Positions 47,340-51,330 of a DNA stretch of 52,923 nt are shown one piece after another. The stretch's first letter is position 1, and each line of letters starts with the position of its first letter. Source of the stretch: a virus (lineage: Duplodnaviria > Heunggongvirae > Uroviricota > Caudoviricetes); the IMG/VR virus record IMGVR_UViG_2877251553_000008; one strand, given 5' to 3'. A model generated the notes under the pieces. It had not been told where the DNA came from and searched no databases. It saw nothing but the letters and a program-made list of their open reading frames with translations. A program made the translations under genes and the position numbers.

Positions 47340-47430
47340 CACAAAAAGAAAACAAAGTATCAAAAATCACTTGTCACACCTTGATACCTTAGTTACCATA
47401 AAACAAAGTTCGTAACTGAGGTATCATCTC
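47340..47430 (+). promoter_or_regulatory. second operator-bearing promoter region (OL/pL-like) downstream of cI
   Basis: Same half-site core as the cI-cro region: AGTATCAA 47356-47363, TTGATACC 47381-47388 (inverted pair), GGTATCA 47420-47426. Confidence 0.45.
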
Positions 47431-47675
47431 ATGTTCAATAAAGCTACAACTCTTGACTGTCTCGAAGAACTGAAAAACCTCGGCAGCCTCATTACACTAA
47501 TAGCAAAAGCAACACCTGATGCTACGCTCTCTAGCGATATAGAGTCATGCGCAGGACTGGCATGGGATATGACAAATAGCATATCCAGAAAGCTATCGTC
47601 AGCAATGCTTTTACAGAACAAAAATTCTGCAATCAACAACCGTCTTCGCACCCAACGCGAAGCCTGCGGCTTAAC
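47431..47675 (+). pseudogene. first early-left gene (unknown function), 3' end cut by IS911
   Basis: ORF MFNKATTLDCLEELKNLGSLITLIAKATPDATLSSDIESCAGLAWDMTNS... continues into the IS911 end; not Arg-rich, so not an obvious N homologue. Confidence 0.4.
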
Positions 47676-47683
47676 TGAAGTGG

Positions 47684-48523
47684 TCAACAAAAACTGGCCA
47701 CCGAGTTAGAGTTTTTCCAGTATCGATTTTCCGATTCGTTTGGGGGTAACCCACCGTTATATTCGTGCGGTCTTAGTGCGCTGTAATATCCAACGATATA
47801 GTCCGTTATGGCGTGAGCTGCCTCGCTGAAGCTTACGTAACCCACCACCGGCATCCATTCGTTCTTCAGACTCCTGAAGAAGCGTTCCATTGGGCTGTTA
47901 TCCCAGCAGTTTCCGCGCCGGCTCATACTCTGTCTGATCTGGTATCGCCACAATAACTGCCGGAACTGCCTGCTCGTATAATGACTGCCCTGATCGCTGT
48001 GGAACATCACCCCGCCGGGCTTACCACGGGTTTCCCATGCCATTTCCAGCGCTTTCATGGTGAGCCTGCTGTCCGGCGAGAACGACATGGCCCAGCCCAC
48101 TGGTTTTCTTGCGAACAGGTCGAGAACAACGGCGAGGTACGCCCAGCGCTTACCCGTCCAGATACAGGTCACATCACCGCACCACACCTGATTTGGCTCG
48201 GTCACGGCGAACTGCCTTTCAAGGTAGTTAGGGATAGCAACATGTTCATGACCACCACGTTTATTCCGGTGAGTCGGCTGCTGACAGCTGACCAGCCCCA
48301 GCTCTTTCATGAGCCTGCCAGCAAGCCAGCGTCCCATCTGGTAGCCTCTCCGGGTTGCCATTGTGGCGATGCTTCTTGCTCCGGCCGAACCATGGCTGAT
48401 GCCATGTAGCTCAAGTACCTGACTGCGTAATACAGCCCGTCTGCCGTCTGGTTTTTCAGGACGGTTTTTCCAGTATCTGTAGCTGCTGCGATGAACCCCG
48501 AACACTTGGCAGAGTGTGACCAC
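47684..48523 (-). CDS. insO: IS911 orfB transposase (InsO; made as orfAB fusion)
   Basis: 279-aa ORF with DDE domain ...[31 protein letters not shown]...[10 protein letters not shown]... Confidence 0.9.
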
Positions 48524-48549
48524 AGGATAATGCGCTCTGAGTTTCCCGA

Positions 48550-48852
48550 TTATCGAGAACTGTTCAGGGAGTCTGACATCAAGAGCGCGGTAGCCTTTTT
48601 TAATATTTCATTCTCCATTTCAATGCGTTGTAGCTTTTTCCTCAGCTTACGTATTTCGATTTGTTCTGGTGTTATCGGAGAGGCTTTTGGTGTTTTGCCC
48701 TGACGCTCATCACGCAGTTGTTTGACCCATCTTGTCATTGTGGAAAGGCCAACATCCATAGCTTTGGCGGCATCTGCCACCGTGTATTTCTGGTCAACAA
48801 CCAGTTGAGCGGATTCGCGTTTAAACTCTGCGCTAAAATTTCTTTTTTTCAT
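48550..48852 (-). CDS. insN: IS911 orfA (InsN)
   Basis: [49 protein letters not shown]... Confidence 0.9.
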
Positions 48853-48960
48853 TGGAGCACCTGTGTTGTTCTGAGGTGAGCATATCACCTCTGTTCAGGT
48901 GGCCAAATTCAGTGTGCCACTTCAGTGTTATGTTCAACCAGTTACTTAAACAGGTAAGAA

Positions 48961-49278
48961 ATGGCAACTGACTCACAACTAACCATAGAAACGGCCCTGA
49001 ATGTCGGCCTGGCGCTCCTTGGTTATTTTTACATCGTGTTCTGCAGCAGACGGTGGCTGTCGCTGTTGTTCCTGAAAAAATGGAATAAACGCCGTAAGCA
49101 GGATGAACGCCAGAAGGCAATGAATGCGTTTTCCGAAGCCTTCGGAATTGACGGCATGGAACCAGGGGATCCAGCTCGCGCAATCAGCAGAGGGGGTGTA
49201 GTAATCCTTGTATATCGGAGTGAAGAGAAAAATGACGATCACAAAACAACGAGTAGAAAAAATCATATATCGCCATGA
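48961..49278 (+). CDS. hypothetical small membrane protein (N-terminal TM helix, basic tail)
   Basis: 105-aa ORF; TM segment LNVGLALLGYFYIVF followed by SRRW..KKWNKRRKQDERQK; 3' end overlaps the next gene. Confidence 0.4.
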   Translation: MATDSQLTIETALNVGLALLGYFYIVFCSRRWLSLLFLKKWNKRRKQDERQKAMNAFSEAFGIDGMEPGDPARAISRGGVVILVYRSEEKNDDHKTTSRKNHISP

Positions 49279-49546
49279 AATGGGACTGAACAGCGATGTC
49301 ACTGCCGAAGAGGTTTATGACCTGGCTGTACTGGCGCTGAATTTATCAAATATCGCAAACCTGAAGCGATACGAGCTTGATATGGATGGTTGCGACTCGT
49401 GCGGTCAGGATTGTGGCGCAGATATGACTGAAGATCCTGATGGTGATTATGTCCTGTTTGATGACGTGGTTAAGTTGTTTGAATTTGATACAACCACTCA
49501 AAAGTTAGAAATCCCGGCAAAGGAGGCTGCCAGTGAGCAAGATTGA
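49232..49546 (+). CDS. hypothetical protein (104 aa)
   Basis: ATG at 49232 with GGAG RBS; MTITKQRVEKIIYRHEMGLNSDVTAEEVYDLAV...; acidic Cys-containing C-terminus. Confidence 0.4.
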   Translation: MTITKQRVEKIIYRHEMGLNSDVTAEEVYDLAVLALNLSNIANLKRYELDMDGCDSCGQDCGADMTEDPDGDYVLFDDVVKLFEFDTTTQKLEIPAKEAASEQD

Positions 49547-50079: not shown

Positions 50080-50343
50080 ATGGCCACTTTAACAAAAAAA
50101 GAACGGGCATGGTTGAATGAATTACAGGACGTTCTTGATCGCTGTCCATTACCAAAAAAAATTGGTTTTTACACCATTGGCGATAAAACCATTTACCTGT
50201 ATGACCTACGCCGCATGGATGAAATCATGGAGGCTCTTGATAATCGTTCGTCGATGGATTGGTGTGTTGCTGTCCATGATATGAATGCAGGGTTTGATGA
50301 AAAGATTTTGTTCCCCTCATCAGTTGAAAGCACTGCGGGTTAA
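50080..50343 (+). CDS. hypothetical protein (87 aa)
   Basis: Compact ORF immediately after the previous stop; no homologue recalled. Confidence 0.4.
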   Translation: MATLTKKERAWLNELQDVLDRCPLPKKIGFYTIGDKTIYLYDLRRMDEIMEALDNRSSMDWCVAVHDMNAGFDEKILFPSSVESTAG

Positions 50344-50353
50344 GGAGTAACAC

Positions 50354-50617
50354 ATGACCACTATAACCAAAGAGCGACTGCTGACAATCAAGCAGTGGCG
50401 CGAAACATACGGACCGGGTAGCAACGTTGTGCTTCCAGCAGAAGAAGCGGAAGAGCTGGCACGGATTGCGCTGGCATCACTGGCAGCAGAGCCGGTGGCA
50501 AAGATTATAGCTCATTACCCATTAGGAGTTGACGTAGGCAAACAAAAATTCGTACAGGCCATTAGAGAGCTTCCTGACTTTGGCGGATATCTATTTGCCG
50601 CCCTCCAGCGCCGATAG
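50354..50617 (+). CDS. hypothetical protein (87 aa)
   Basis: ORF with RBS GGAG; no homologue recalled. Confidence 0.4.
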   Translation: MTTITKERLLTIKQWRETYGPGSNVVLPAEEAEELARIALASLAAEPVAKIIAHYPLGVDVGKQKFVQAIRELPDFGGYLFAALQRR

Positions 50618-50865
50618 TGCCGGAAGAAATGTATAGGCAGGATGCGCCAGTTGAAGGCAGCAGCAAAGCGGCTGCATACGCTACAGGCTGGAACGATTGC
50701 CGCGAAGCCATGCTTCAGTCCGGAAACTTTCGGGAAAATAAAGATTCGTCAACCAATAATTTTCGGAAAATCCCGGAAGCGTCAACCAGCTCTCCGGTAA
50801 CTCCGGATGGTTGGATAAGCTGTAGTGAGCGAATGCCGGACGACAGGCAGGAGGTGAATCAATGA
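50617..50865 (+). CDS. hypothetical protein, DUF551-like C-terminus (82 aa)
   Basis: ...TPDGWISCSERMPDD resembles the DUF551 WIS..RLP motif; stop overlaps the next ATG. Confidence 0.35.
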   Translation: MPEEMYRQDAPVEGSSKAAAYATGWNDCREAMLQSGNFRENKDSSTNNFRKIPEASTSSPVTPDGWISCSERMPDDRQEVNQ

Positions 50866-50945
50866 GCTGGCCTGATGCAATCGTAACTCTGGGGGTGGTA
50901 TTCGCAGCAGCGTTTGTTGTGTTCTCGATTTGTCGATGGGGATAA
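50862..50945 (+). CDS. candidate 27-aa hydrophobic peptide
   Basis: AGGAGG-N7-ATG; MSWPDAIVTLGVVFAAAFVVFSICRWG; ATGA-coupled to the upstream gene. Confidence 0.35.
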   Translation: MSWPDAIVTLGVVFAAAFVVFSICRWG

Positions 50946-50949
50946 CCAC

Positions 50950-51192
50950 ATGTTCGCTTTGATTCAACGCGGTCAGATATACACGGACAGAGCCGGATAC
51001 CCCGTGGTGATTACTCGCATCACTGAGCACTCAGTGTTCTTTCGACGGATGGACGGACGATCCGGGCGGGTACGCATTGGTGAGTTAAACTGCCTGTTCG
51101 AACATATTGACCACCAGGAGTACCGCAAAATTCTCGCGGACACTGAGCAGGAAAAGCACCTGAAAAAATTACGAGCCATAAAAAGGAAGTAA
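50950..51192 (+). CDS. hypothetical protein (80 aa, DUF4222-like)
   Basis: MFALIQRGQIYTDRAGYPVVITRITEHSVFFRRMDGRSGRVRIGELNCLFEHIDHQEYRKILADTEQEKHLKKLRAIKRK. Confidence 0.45.
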   Translation: MFALIQRGQIYTDRAGYPVVITRITEHSVFFRRMDGRSGRVRIGELNCLFEHIDHQEYRKILADTEQEKHLKKLRAIKRK

Positions 51193-51195
51193 AGA

Positions 51196-51330
51196 ATGAA
51201 TAAAGCATTTGAACGATGGGTCCACCAGCGTTACGGCAATCGCTATGACCTGACGCGAGATGTTGACGGCTTCTACTGTCGTGAAGTTGTGAAGCGAATG
51301 TTTGACGTGTGGTGCCACTGCCGTGGATGA
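51196..51330 (+). CDS. candidate 44-aa Cys-rich small protein
   Basis: AAGGAAG RBS; MNKAFERWVHQRYGNRYDLTRDVDGFYCREVVKRMFDVWCHCRG. Confidence 0.3.
   Translation: MNKAFERWVHQRYGNRYDLTRDVDGFYCREVVKRMFDVWCHCRG

What the first reader, a model, noticed from the sequence alone, without database searches (positions are those of the whole stretch)
47340..51330. Compressed early-left region: no N, no recombination module, IS911 in the first gene, then a run of tiny ORFs
Downstream of cI there is an operator-bearing region, then a gene cut by IS911, then only ~2.4 kb before xis/int. That stretch holds a membrane protein with a basic tail (48961-49278), an Ead/Ea22-like gene, a 27-aa hydrophobic peptide ATGA-coupled to a DUF551-like gene (50862-50945) and a 44-aa Cys-rich ORF. 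The cI-proximal slot and the xis-proximal small genes are known hotspots for superinfection-exclusion and host-takeover functions.
Basis: partly seen in the sequence, partly recalled or inferred. Interest (0 to 1): 0.5.

Follow-up and report, generated by a model that had tools for sequence, protein, structure and literature searches.

The report
IS911-deleted early-left operon of a prophage
This is the early-left operon of a lambda-like prophage in which an IS911 element has replaced about 1.9 kb of genes, leaving a packed set of conserved accessory genes of unknown function; it is mostly ordinary, except for a real but almost never annotated 27-residue membrane peptide gene.

Summary
The sequence features are all there. 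Three cI operators and a pL-like promoter lie at 47348-47426. The first pL gene is cut at codon 82 by a full-length IS911 (47676-48924). Then 2,424 bp of tightly packed genes run up to xis and int.

Three corrections:
- IS911 did not simply insert. It has no 3-bp target duplication, and its flanks lie 1,928 bp apart in a 99%-identical E. coli prophage. So about 4.5 genes were lost.
- Intact relatives also lack N and recombination genes, so that absence is a lineage trait and not a result of the compression.
- The 87-aa and 82-aa ORFs are one 170-aa gene. It is split by a 1-nt homopolymer deletion private to this assembly (CP026825.1). The same is true of a frameshift in cI.

Every ORF except one belongs to an existing Pfam or PHROG family of unknown function. 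None matches a known defence family.

The exception is the 27-aa ORF. It is a real gene with a conserved length, Shine-Dalgarno sequence and ATGA overlap, and pN/pS is about 0.3-0.4. DNA similar to it is found in about 18% of complete E. coli genomes and in phage 933W, where it is unannotated. Its function is unknown.

The parts
46672..47327 (+). cI repressor (HTH_3 + Peptidase_S24; 218 aa in relatives). In this window it is split by a 1-nt deletion in a G5 run at 47045.
   Evidence: It is intact in 7 of 8 assemblies that share the IS911 junction.
47348..47426 (+). oL/pL: three 15-nt operators (47348-47362, 47382-47396, 47412-47426) around a -35 TTGTCA (47371) and a -10 TACCAT (47394-47399).
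   Evidence: The motif gave 6 matches against 0.39 expected, all at oR or oL.
47431..47675 (+). 5' remnant (codons 1-82) of the first pL gene. It encodes a phrog_4739 XRE-type HTH protein that is 138-216 aa in relatives. The open frame runs on into IS911 as far as 47709.
47676..48924 (-). IS911, full length (1,249 bp), with orfA and orfB open. The flanking triplets are AAC and GTG, so there is no target-site duplication.
48925..48971 (+). Last ~15 codons plus stop of an 84-aa MarR-like winged-helix gene. This marks the right breakpoint of the deletion.
48961..49278 (+). DUF4752 protein, 105 aa. It has one hydrophobic segment (residues 11-29) followed by a basic stretch.
49232..49546 (+). 104-aa acidic protein, phrog_3126, function unknown.
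49533..50078 (+). Ead/Ea22-like protein, 181 aa. It is a single hybrid gene where relatives carry two tandem Ea22-like genes.
50080..50343 (+). 87-aa protein, phrog_1714, function unknown.
50354..50865 (+). One 170-aa gene (phrog_60 type). It keeps only the first 16 of 68 DUF551 model positions. In this window it appears as 87-aa and 82-aa ORFs because of a 1-nt C-run deletion at 50601.
50862..50945 (+). 27-aa hydrophobic peptide gene (MSWPDAIVTLGVVFAAAFVVFSICRWG). It has an ATGA overlap with the upstream gene, and GGAGG lies 7 nt before the ATG.
50950..51192 (+). DUF4222 protein, 80 aa.
51196..51330 (+). 44-aa protein with 3 Cys, phrog_3871.
51349..51603 (+). Excisionase (DUF1233 / phrog_539).
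51637..52923 (+). Tyrosine integrase, 428 aa. In the source chromosome an mlrA (yehV)-type gene follows 21 nt later.

Best explanation
The region is the pL (early-left) operon of a lambdoid prophage of the phiP27 / Stx1a-phage type, integrated next to mlrA. This lineage natively has no N gene, no nut sites and no Red/RecET/Erf module.

In intact relatives the operon runs: cI, then oL/pL, an XRE-HTH regulator, three small genes of unknown function, a MarR-like winged-helix gene, DUF4752, phrog_3126, one or two Ea22-like genes, phrog_1714, a DUF551-type gene, the 27-aa peptide, DUF4222, phrog_3871, xis and int.

In the lineage of this window, one IS911 copy in antisense orientation replaces 1.8-1.9 kb. 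The lost stretch runs from codon 82 of the regulator to 14 codons before the end of the winged-helix gene. There is no target duplication. This points either to an IS-mediated adjacent deletion or to recombination between two IS911 copies; which of the two is inferred and cannot be told apart here.

The remaining 2.4 kb is an ordinary exo-xis-like accessory cassette, mosaic and packed by overlapping or abutting start and stop codons. Its genes now lie 1.25 kb of antisense IS away from pL, and no promoter-like site was found between them. Their expression, and pL-driven xis/int expression, should therefore depend on read-through and is probably reduced (inferred).

The apparent frameshifts in cI and in the 170-aa gene are homopolymer errors of this one assembly.

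The 27-aa ORF is a real gene. It most likely encodes a single-pass inner-membrane mini-protein, with the acidic N-terminus outside and Arg25 inside, translated by coupling to the gene upstream. Its cellular target is unknown.
For: IS911-associated deletion:
- The left flank ends at L003:2836 and the right flank starts at L003:4765, with 99.0% and 98.5% identity. In Stx1_14040 the corresponding positions are 2872 and 4661.
- The flanking triplets are AAC and GTG, whereas the Sf6 copy of the same IS has AAC and AAC.
- Both breakpoints fall inside genes.

Lineage without N or recombination genes:
- Pfam and PHROG scans of all window ORFs and of the genes missing from the window found no N or recombinase.
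- There is no boxA-like sequence near pL or pR.

Same junction in a whole lineage:
- At least 16 contigs carry the chimeric 92-aa ORF.
- Three IMG/VR contigs carry the junctions.
- None of 5,426 complete E. coli genomes carries either junction.

Assembly errors:
- The window is 100% identical to CP026825.1 over 11,493 bp.
- Sister assemblies differ from it almost only by private 1-nt deletions in G or C runs. cI is intact in 7 of 8 and the 170-aa gene in 5 of 6.
- Against L012 there are 25 one-base deletions in homopolymer runs versus 5 insertions.

Reading through the IS:
- No plus-strand promoter-like site lies between the IS and 48961.

The 27-aa gene:
- 11 loci with diverged DNA all keep 27 codons, the ATGA overlap and a Shine-Dalgarno sequence.
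- Among 57 unique sequences the summed entropy by codon position is 9.9, 7.6 and 20.6, and pooled pN/pS is 0.32.
- Using codons 8-27 only, pN/pS is 0.40 in frame, against 0.75 and 1.76 in the two shifted frames. None of the 57 has an in-frame stop.
Against: - There are no expression data. The polarity of the IS and translation of the peptide are both inferred.
- The ancestral state is read from relatives in a mosaic region, so the exact content of the lost segment could differ. It is 1,788 bp in one relative and 1,928 bp in another.
- Slippage in homopolymers also happens in nature, so one or two of the frameshifts could be real in that strain.
- The set of 27-aa sequences was partly gathered with a pattern that fixed ATGA and WPEAF. 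Those codons were excluded, but the sample is still biased towards close relatives.
Confidence: 0.8

Rival explanations
1. IS911 simply inserted into the first gene of a region that was already this short.
For: The early-left region is mosaic and its length varies between relatives.
Against: - There is no 3-bp duplication, unlike the Sf6 copy.
- In both relatives that match both flanks, the flanks lie 1.8-1.9 kb apart.
- The sequence right of the IS begins 14 codons before the end of a gene whose first 70 codons are missing.
Confidence: 0.03
2. The prophage is truly decaying. The frameshifts in cI, the 170-aa gene, Q, the helicase and the structural genes are real pseudogenising mutations.
For: - The window carries three IS elements.
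- Many large genes are split.
- The IS911 deletion itself is real decay.
Against: - All isolated indels are 1-nt losses in G or C runs.
- Against L013 there are 5 such indels but only 2 substitutions in 12.4 kb.
- Each long-read assembly of the same prophage has a different private set of indels, and the short-read contigs have the full-length runs.
Confidence: 0.07
3. One reading: the cI-proximal slot and the xis-proximal small genes encode superinfection-exclusion or host-takeover functions, for example DUF4752 or the 27-aa peptide acting at the membrane.
For: - Two products are predicted membrane proteins.
- The genes are conserved in many phages.
- Lambda exo-xis genes are reported to affect host replication and the lysis-lysogeny choice (PMC10834534).
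Against: - There are no PADLOC or NCBIfam matches.
- The cI-proximal gene is an XRE-type DNA-binding protein and is truncated here.
- No gene lies between cI and oL.
- pL genes are repressed in a lysogen, so they cannot exclude superinfecting phage from the prophage state (established lambda biology).
Confidence: 0.2
4. The 84-nt segment is conserved for a reason at the DNA or RNA level and is not translated. It could be a recombination linker at the end of DUF551 modules, or part of the upstream region of hok/sok loci.
For: - It follows several conserved upstream C-terminal types: DUF551-type 59 of 94, EDVLR-type 26 of 94.
- A hok gene lies 189-465 nt downstream in 44 of 103 copies.
- It is not annotated in any of the annotated phage records and PGAP-annotated E. 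coli loci inspected.
Against: - Third-position variation dominates.
- pN/pS is below 1 in all 1,473 informative pairs and is lowest in the proposed frame.
- Length, start, stop and Shine-Dalgarno sequence are kept across different upstream and downstream neighbours.
Confidence: 0.12

Closest known systems
Early-left regions of Stx1a-converting phage Stx1_14040 (LC567819), the E. coli NMBU_W05E18 prophage (NZ_CP042878) and phage phiP27 (AJ298298)
   Same: - They share the same cI, operators and first gene, at 86-99% DNA identity.
- From DUF4752 to int, the first two share the same gene order: DUF4752, Ea22-like genes, DUF551-type gene, 27-aa ORF, DUF4222, a 44-48-aa ORF, xis and int. phiP27 matches the window only at cI and the first gene and again from the DUF4222 gene to int.
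- None has N or recombination genes.
   Different: - The relatives have no IS911.
- They keep the full HTH regulator (138-216 aa), and the first two also keep three to four further genes and a MarR-like gene.
- The first two have two Ea22-like genes, against one in the window.
The exo-xis ('ea') accessory region of lambda and Stx phages
   Same: - It is a pL-driven block upstream of xis.
- It holds an Ead/Ea22-family gene with a mosaic C-terminus.
- DUF551 occurs there as a portable C-terminal domain.
- Most functions are unknown (PMC10834534).
   Different: - Here there is no exo/bet/gam upstream.
- No similarity to lambda orf60a, orf61, orf63 or orf73 was seen; this was not tested by direct comparison.
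- The C-terminal part of the Ea22-like protein gave no match in the PDB sequence search, a library that should contain the published lambda Ea22 CTD.
IS911 (IS3 family), for example the copy in Shigella phage Sf6 gene 54 (ninG)
   Same: - Same length of 1,249 bp and 98.9% identity.
- Same terminal repeats (TGAAGTGG...).
- orfA and orfB have the same layout.
   Different: The Sf6 copy is a simple insertion with an AAC/AAC duplication. The window copy has unrelated flanks (AAC/GTG) and replaces about 1.9 kb.
Small hydrophobic bacterial and phage peptides (type I toxins such as Hok, TisB, Ibs; small phage membrane proteins)
   Same: The 27-aa product is of similar size and is essentially one transmembrane helix with a short polar N-terminus and a C-terminal Arg.
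   Different: - It is translationally coupled to an upstream gene inside an operon.
- There is no evidence of its own promoter or of an antisense RNA.
- It has no sequence similarity to any Pfam, PHROG or NCBIfam family.

Membership tests
IS911 (IS3 family) | About 1,250 bp with terminal inverted repeats beginning TGAAGTGG | tested here: met
   47676-48924 is 1,249 bp. It aligns end to end with the Sf6 copy with 14 substitutions and no indel.
IS911 (IS3 family) | orfA followed by orfB in the -1 frame, with an A6G slippery site | tested here: met
   The 100-aa OrfA and the OrfB frame are both open on the minus strand. The AAAAAAG motif is present at the orfA/orfB overlap.
IS911 (IS3 family) | 3-bp direct duplication of the target site, as expected for a simple insertion | tested here: not met
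   The flanks are AAC and GTG, whereas the Sf6 copy has AAC and AAC. This fits an associated deletion and does not argue against the element being IS911.
Lambda N antitermination system | A small arginine-rich N protein encoded as the first pL gene | tested here: not met
   The first pL gene is a phrog_4739 XRE-HTH protein. No ORF here or in intact relatives hits an N family.
Lambda N antitermination system | nut sites (boxA plus a boxB hairpin) downstream of pL and pR | tested here: not met
   The boxA-like pattern YGCTCTTWA occurs once in the window, inside int, which is at chance level. boxB was not searched for.
Phage recombination module (Red exo/bet/gam, RecET, Erf, Sak) | A single-strand annealing protein and/or exonuclease gene in the early-left operon | tested here: not met
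   No Pfam or PHROG hit in the window ORFs or in the genes present only in relatives. No such gene was noticed among the large ORFs of the early-right operon that were scanned or among the Pfam labels of the called genes there.
Ead/Ea22 family | Match to Pfam Ead_Ea22 (PF13935) above its gathering score | tested here: met
   49533-50078 scores 133 bits against a cut-off of 27, covering model positions 1-139.
DUF4752 | Match to PF15944 above its gathering score | tested here: met
   48961-49278 scores 123.6 bits against a cut-off of 27, covering model positions 2-84 of 84.
DUF551 | The complete 68-position DUF551 domain | tested here: not met
   Only model positions 1-16 match, at the extreme C-terminus of the 170-aa protein (24.1 bits). 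Stx1_14040 has the full domain there, and the window and L003 lack about 190 bp relative to it.
DUF4222 | Match to PF13973 above its gathering score | tested here: met
   50950-51192 scores 51.3 bits against a cut-off of 27.
Known anti-phage defence or superinfection-exclusion systems | Match to a PADLOC model | tested here: not met
   Only generic HTH hits (RmrA, CapH-like) for the intact form of the first gene. Nothing for the other eight proteins tested.
Type I toxin-antitoxin (Hok-like and similar) | A small hydrophobic toxin with its own transcript and a cis-encoded antisense RNA | not tested
   The 27-aa ORF is hydrophobic but operon-embedded and ATGA-coupled. No Rfam family overlaps it. 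Promoter or antisense RNA evidence would need transcript data.

The most novel reading that the evidence does not exclude
The 27-aa ORF defines an undescribed and widespread family of phage mini membrane proteins with the pattern M-x-W-P-(E/D)-A-F, one transmembrane helix, then C-R-W-G.

- Standard annotation misses it: it is absent from every PGAP-annotated locus inspected. At 84 nt it is also below the 90-nt minimum gene length I recall for Prodigal.
- It is made by translational coupling at the 3' end of DUF551-type and related early genes.
- It occurs in temperate Stx phages including 933W, in phage-plasmids, and in at least one virulent Vequintavirinae phage.
- It would act on a host membrane target during early infection.
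Probability: 0.45. Interest if true: 0.5.

Novelty: new member of a known kind. Interest (0 to 1): 0.3.

Why it matters
For this window, the practical points are these:
- The prophage lineage carries a fixed IS911-associated deletion. It removes the DNA-binding half of the first pL gene and about four further genes, and it separates xis and int from pL.
- Several apparent pseudogenes, cI included, are errors of one long-read assembly. Any claim of a dead repressor or a defective prophage based on this sequence alone would be wrong.

More generally, the 27-aa ORF shows that a conserved, selected gene can go unannotated in well-studied phages such as 933W. DNA similar to it is found in about one in five complete E. 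coli genomes. It is a cheap and well-defined target for small-protein work, but nothing yet suggests an unusual mechanism.

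Tried and rejected
- I looked for the IS911 junctions elsewhere. They are absent from one-genome-per-species contigs and from 5,426 complete E. coli genomes. They are present in three IMG/VR contigs and at least 16 NCBI contigs.
- I tried to name the host. The tools give accession numbers only, and a paper search for them found nothing. My recollection that CP0268xx are CDC Shigella reference genomes is unverified.
- I searched the PDB by sequence with the 44-aa, DUF4222, Ea22-like and DUF4752 proteins and found nothing. 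This library should contain the solved lambda Ea8.5-homolog and Ea22 CTD structures.
- I scanned PADLOC and NCBIfam for defence or named functions and found nothing useful.
- I tried the large protein database with the 27-aa peptide.
- An exact look-up showed that a few old GenBank records call the peptide 'bacteriophage protein' or 'hypothetical'. Its apparent clustering with 121-aa DUF551 proteins is an artefact of partial, wrong-frame entries and not a fusion.
- Weak Pfam and PHROG hits at E-values up to 10 (DUF883_C, PTR2, phrog_4612) reflect only the composition of a transmembrane helix.
- A literature search for the peptide strings, and a search of the EHEC Sakai ribosome-profiling supplements, found nothing.
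- I checked K-12 CPS-53 (yfdS-yfdT) for the ORF. It is absent there.
- I considered a -1 frameshift fusion of the peptide to the upstream protein and rejected it. There is no slippery site, and in the window stop codons lie 14 codons upstream in that frame.
- I did not run AlphaFold or fold searches. The peptide is below the 30-aa limit. For the other small proteins a model would not have changed the verdict, and it would have needed the costly homolog searches.

Full report
**Anatomy.** The plus strand of 46.6-52.9 kb reads as the leftward early arm of a lambdoid prophage: cro (46333-46560, minus strand), then cI (46672-47327), a control region, a run of plus-strand genes, then xis (51349-51603) and int (51637-52923). 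The control region is real. The 15-nt motif GWWAYNWWRGTATCA gives 6 matches in the whole window against 0.39 expected, and all lie between cro and cI or just after cI. A further copy at 46578-46591 shows up as an inverted repeat of the 47348 site. A -35 TTGTCA / -10 TACCAT pair at 47371-47399 is interleaved with the three oL sites. No gene lies between cI and oL.

**IS911 and what it removed.**
- The first pL gene starts at 47431 and matches phrog_4739 over residues 1-82 only.
- From 47676 to 48924 the sequence is IS911. It is 98.9% identical to the copy in Shigella phage Sf6, of identical length (1,249 bp) and without indels. Both reading frames are open and the transposase lies on the minus strand.
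- The Sf6 copy is flanked by AAC/AAC. The window copy is flanked by AAC/GTG.
- In the closest IS-free relative, the prophage of E. coli NMBU_W05E18 (L003), the left flank is 99.0% and the right flank 98.5% identical. The left flank ends at position 2836 and the right flank resumes at 4765, so 1,928 bp are missing from the window. In Stx1a phage Stx1_14040 (L001) the gap is 1,788 bp.
- The lost stretch holds the HTH half of the first gene, which is 138-216 aa in relatives and matches Pfam HTH_3. It also holds phrog_5451 (68 aa), phrog_340 (60 aa), phrog_1515 (193 aa), and the first 70 of 84 codons of a MarR-like winged-helix gene. That gene is annotated in L001 and unannotated in L003.
- The remaining 47 nt of the winged-helix gene (48925-48971) abut the IS.
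- A second contraction lies in the Ea22 genes. L003 has 794 bp where the window has 120 bp, so the window carries one hybrid Ea22-like gene where these two relatives (L003 and L001) carry two.

**N and recombination.** No ORF in the window region, and none of the genes present only in relatives, hits an N, antiterminator or recombinase family in Pfam or PHROGs. phiP27, which shares cI and the first gene, has no such gene annotated between cI and xis. A boxA-like pattern occurs once in the window, inside int, at chance level. The N-less, recombinase-less layout is therefore a property of this phage lineage and not a result of the IS event.

**The remaining 2.4 kb.**
- 48961-49278 is DUF4752. 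It has one hydrophobic segment at residues 11-29, followed by 9 K/R in 28 residues.
- 49232-49546 is phrog_3126.
- 49533-50078 is Ead_Ea22.
- 50080-50343 is phrog_1714.
- 50354-50865 is a phrog_60-type gene.
- 50862-50945 is the 27-aa ORF.
- 50950-51192 is DUF4222.
- 51196-51330 is phrog_3871.

Starts and stops overlap or lie 1-18 nt apart, which is typical of an operon. PADLOC and NCBIfam give nothing for these proteins, and PDB sequence searches with four of them (DUF4752, the Ea22-like protein, DUF4222 and the 44-aa protein) give nothing either. The closest described analogue is the pL-driven exo-xis region of lambda and Stx phages. Ea22 genes there are mosaic and DUF551 is a portable C-terminal domain (PMC10834534).

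**Assembly errors.**
- cI appears as 160-aa and 88-aa ORFs, and the phrog_60-type gene appears as 87-aa and 82-aa ORFs.
- Alignment to L003 shows a single missing G in a G5 run (47045) and a single missing C in a C4 run (50601).
- Across the prophage, isolated indels against L012 are overwhelmingly 1-nt losses in G or C runs of the window: 25 deletions against 5 insertions in runs of 3 or more. They break the terminase, capsid, tape-measure, J, helicase and Q genes.
- The window is 100% identical to NCBI CP026825.1 over 11,493 bp.
- Seven other assemblies with the same IS911 junction differ from it almost only by such indels. Each long-read assembly has its own private set, and the short-read contigs have the full-length runs. 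cI is 218 aa in 7 of 8 assemblies and the 170-aa gene is intact in 5 of 6.

I conclude that these frameshifts are sequencing errors of one assembly. The '82-aa DUF551-like gene' of the finding is therefore the 3' half of a 170-aa gene. That gene matches only positions 1-16 of the 68-position DUF551 model. Relative to Stx1_14040, about 190 bp encoding the rest of the domain are missing in both the window and L003.

**Distribution of the IS event.** Neither junction occurs in 5,426 complete E. coli genomes or in the species-representative genome set. Both occur in IMG/VR contigs. The chimeric 92-aa ORF occurs on at least 16 NCBI contigs, six of them chromosomes of 4.3-4.8 Mb. The event is therefore fixed in one lineage. 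In these chromosomes an mlrA (yehV)-type gene follows int by 21 nt.

**Likely consequences (inferred).** The IS lies antisense to pL, and no plus-strand promoter-like site lies between it and DUF4752. With no N system, transcripts from pL must read through 1.25 kb of untranslated antisense IS RNA to reach the accessory genes, xis and int. Reduced expression is likely but was not measured.

**The 27-aa ORF.** This is the only element with some novelty.
- Its sequence is MSWPDAIVTLGVVFAAAFVVFSICRWG. It has no Pfam, PHROG or NCBIfam family.
- The same ORF, always 27 codons, is present in L001, L003, the virulent Vequintavirinae phage Av-05, ArgO145, vB_EcoS-666R9, a phage listed under Actinobacillus, three E. 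coli chromosomes and a 97-kb plasmid. It also occurs in 933W, Min27 and, by DNA similarity, BP-4795.
- In every case inspected the ATG overlaps the upstream stop (ATGA), a GGAGG or GGAGGA box lies 5-8 nt upstream inside the upstream gene, and the ORF is not annotated. Two of the long-read sister assemblies carry a homopolymer error inside the ORF (at 50891), and there it is fused to DUF4222 by the gene caller.
- A few old GenBank records do list it, as 'bacteriophage protein' or 'hypothetical protein'.
- DNA similar to it occurs in 989 of 5,426 complete E. coli genomes, at 1,248 places, 150 of them on plasmids.
- A capped scan of IMG/VR with ATGANNTGGCCNGARGCNTTY returned 120 loci, of which 103 give a 27-aa ORF.
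- The upstream partner ends in a DUF551-type ...HWMPLPEPPQEV(N/R)Q in 59 of 94 cases and in ...LISxEDVLR in 26 of 94.
- Downstream, a hok gene follows at 189-465 nt in 44 of 103 cases, and DUF4222 follows at 5 nt in 17 of 103.
- Selection acts on the protein. Among 57 unique DNA sequences the summed entropy per codon position is 9.9, 7.6 and 20.6. Pooled pN/pS is 0.32, and all 1,473 informative pairs are below 1.
- When the pattern-fixed codons are left out, pN/pS is 0.40 in frame, against 0.75 and 1.76 in the shifted frames, and no in-frame stop occurs.
- The product is essentially one transmembrane helix (Kyte-Doolittle 2.8 over 15 residues). It has an acidic residue at position 5 and Arg at position 25, which suggests an N-out, C-in orientation (inference from the positive-inside rule).
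- Its function is unknown. My best guess is a coupled-translation mini-protein that acts on a host membrane component early in infection. A few ORFs of 23-34 aa with the same MxWPEAF start plus a hydrophobic stretch turned up on contigs of 56-66% G+C. They may be distant relatives or chance matches.

**Verdict.** The region is an ordinary early-left accessory cassette of an N-less lambdoid lineage. It is shortened by an IS911-associated deletion and made to look more fragmented than it is by homopolymer errors. Nothing supports a defence or exclusion role. The 27-aa gene is a worthwhile small side result. Interest is 0.3, and the novelty class is a new member of a known kind.

Noticed in passing
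window 47045 (cI); also 39733, 41974, 44336, 50601 and many sites between 9 and 36 kb: There is a systematic loss of one base in G or C homopolymer runs. It splits cI, Q, the DnaB-like helicase, the terminase, capsid, tape-measure and J genes. These losses are private to the source assembly CP026825.1, and sister assemblies each have their own different set. Gene calls from this window should not be trusted without correction.
   Followed up: yes
window 45275-45463, minus strand: Rfam finds a C4 antisense RNA (78.8 bits) and isrK (56.4 bits) side by side, just upstream of or inside the 5' part of the Rha/Ant-type gene 44669-45520. This is a P1/P7-like or Gifsy-like RNA-controlled antirepressor module sitting in a cI/cro-type prophage.
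   Followed up: no
window 38151-39424: An IS3-family element with a 136-aa HTH_Tnp_1 ORF and a 301-aa rve ORF lies immediately downstream of the Q antiterminator gene (39448-39854). It looks like IS2 to me, unverified. The Q gene itself is split only by a homopolymer error at 39733.
   Followed up: partly
window 4034-5572: An IS66-family transposase (512 aa, DDE_Tnp_IS66 7e-107) lies near the left end of the window. With it the prophage carries at least three IS elements.
   Followed up: no
window 43359-43380: The window lacks one 21-bp unit (TCTGCCCGTAACTCATCCATT) that L012 and five sister contigs have (L013, L141, L143, L144, L147). It lies at the 5' part of the DnaC/IstB-like gene. This looks like a real copy-number difference of a short tandem repeat and not a homopolymer error.
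   Followed up: no
window 35688-36215, minus strand: An STnc100 sRNA (130 bits) lies next to three tRNA genes (Arg-tct, Arg-tcg, Met-cat). This arrangement is commonly seen upstream of the late or stx region of Stx-type phages.
   Followed up: no
L138 (phage 933W, NC_000924.1 58825-58909); 44 of 103 IMG/VR loci: The unannotated 27-aa ORF often lies 189-465 nt upstream of a hok/sok locus, directly before sokW/mokW/hokW in 933W. I did not examine whether this adjacency has any functional meaning.
   Followed up: partly
L083, L099, L106, L124, L134, L034 (IMG/VR contigs of 56-66% G+C): ORFs of 25-34 aa begin with MxWPEAF and continue with a hydrophobic stretch. Most are ATGA-coupled to an upstream frame of 60-171 codons. 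They may be distant relatives of the 27-aa family in other hosts, or chance matches to the search pattern.
   Followed up: no
L143 and L144 (CP026840.1, CP026805.1), equivalent to window 50891: In two sister assemblies a G5-to-G4 error lies inside the 27-aa ORF. It makes gene callers report a 109-aa 'DUF4222' protein that fuses the small ORF to the next gene. This shows how the small gene gets hidden in annotation.
   Followed up: yes
L140-L145, 21 nt beyond the window end (after int): In the source chromosomes the prophage is followed directly by an MlrA (MerR-family, yehV) gene of 215-233 aa. This is the classic integration site of Stx1-type phages.
   Followed up: partly
window 47399 (last base of the pL -10) and 46628 (oR): Two sister assemblies (L143, L147) carry T-to-C at 47399, which changes the -10 from TACCAT to TACCAC. 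They also carry T-to-A at 46628, between the operator sites at 46610-46624 and 46634-48. This is possible regulatory variation within the lineage.
   Followed up: no
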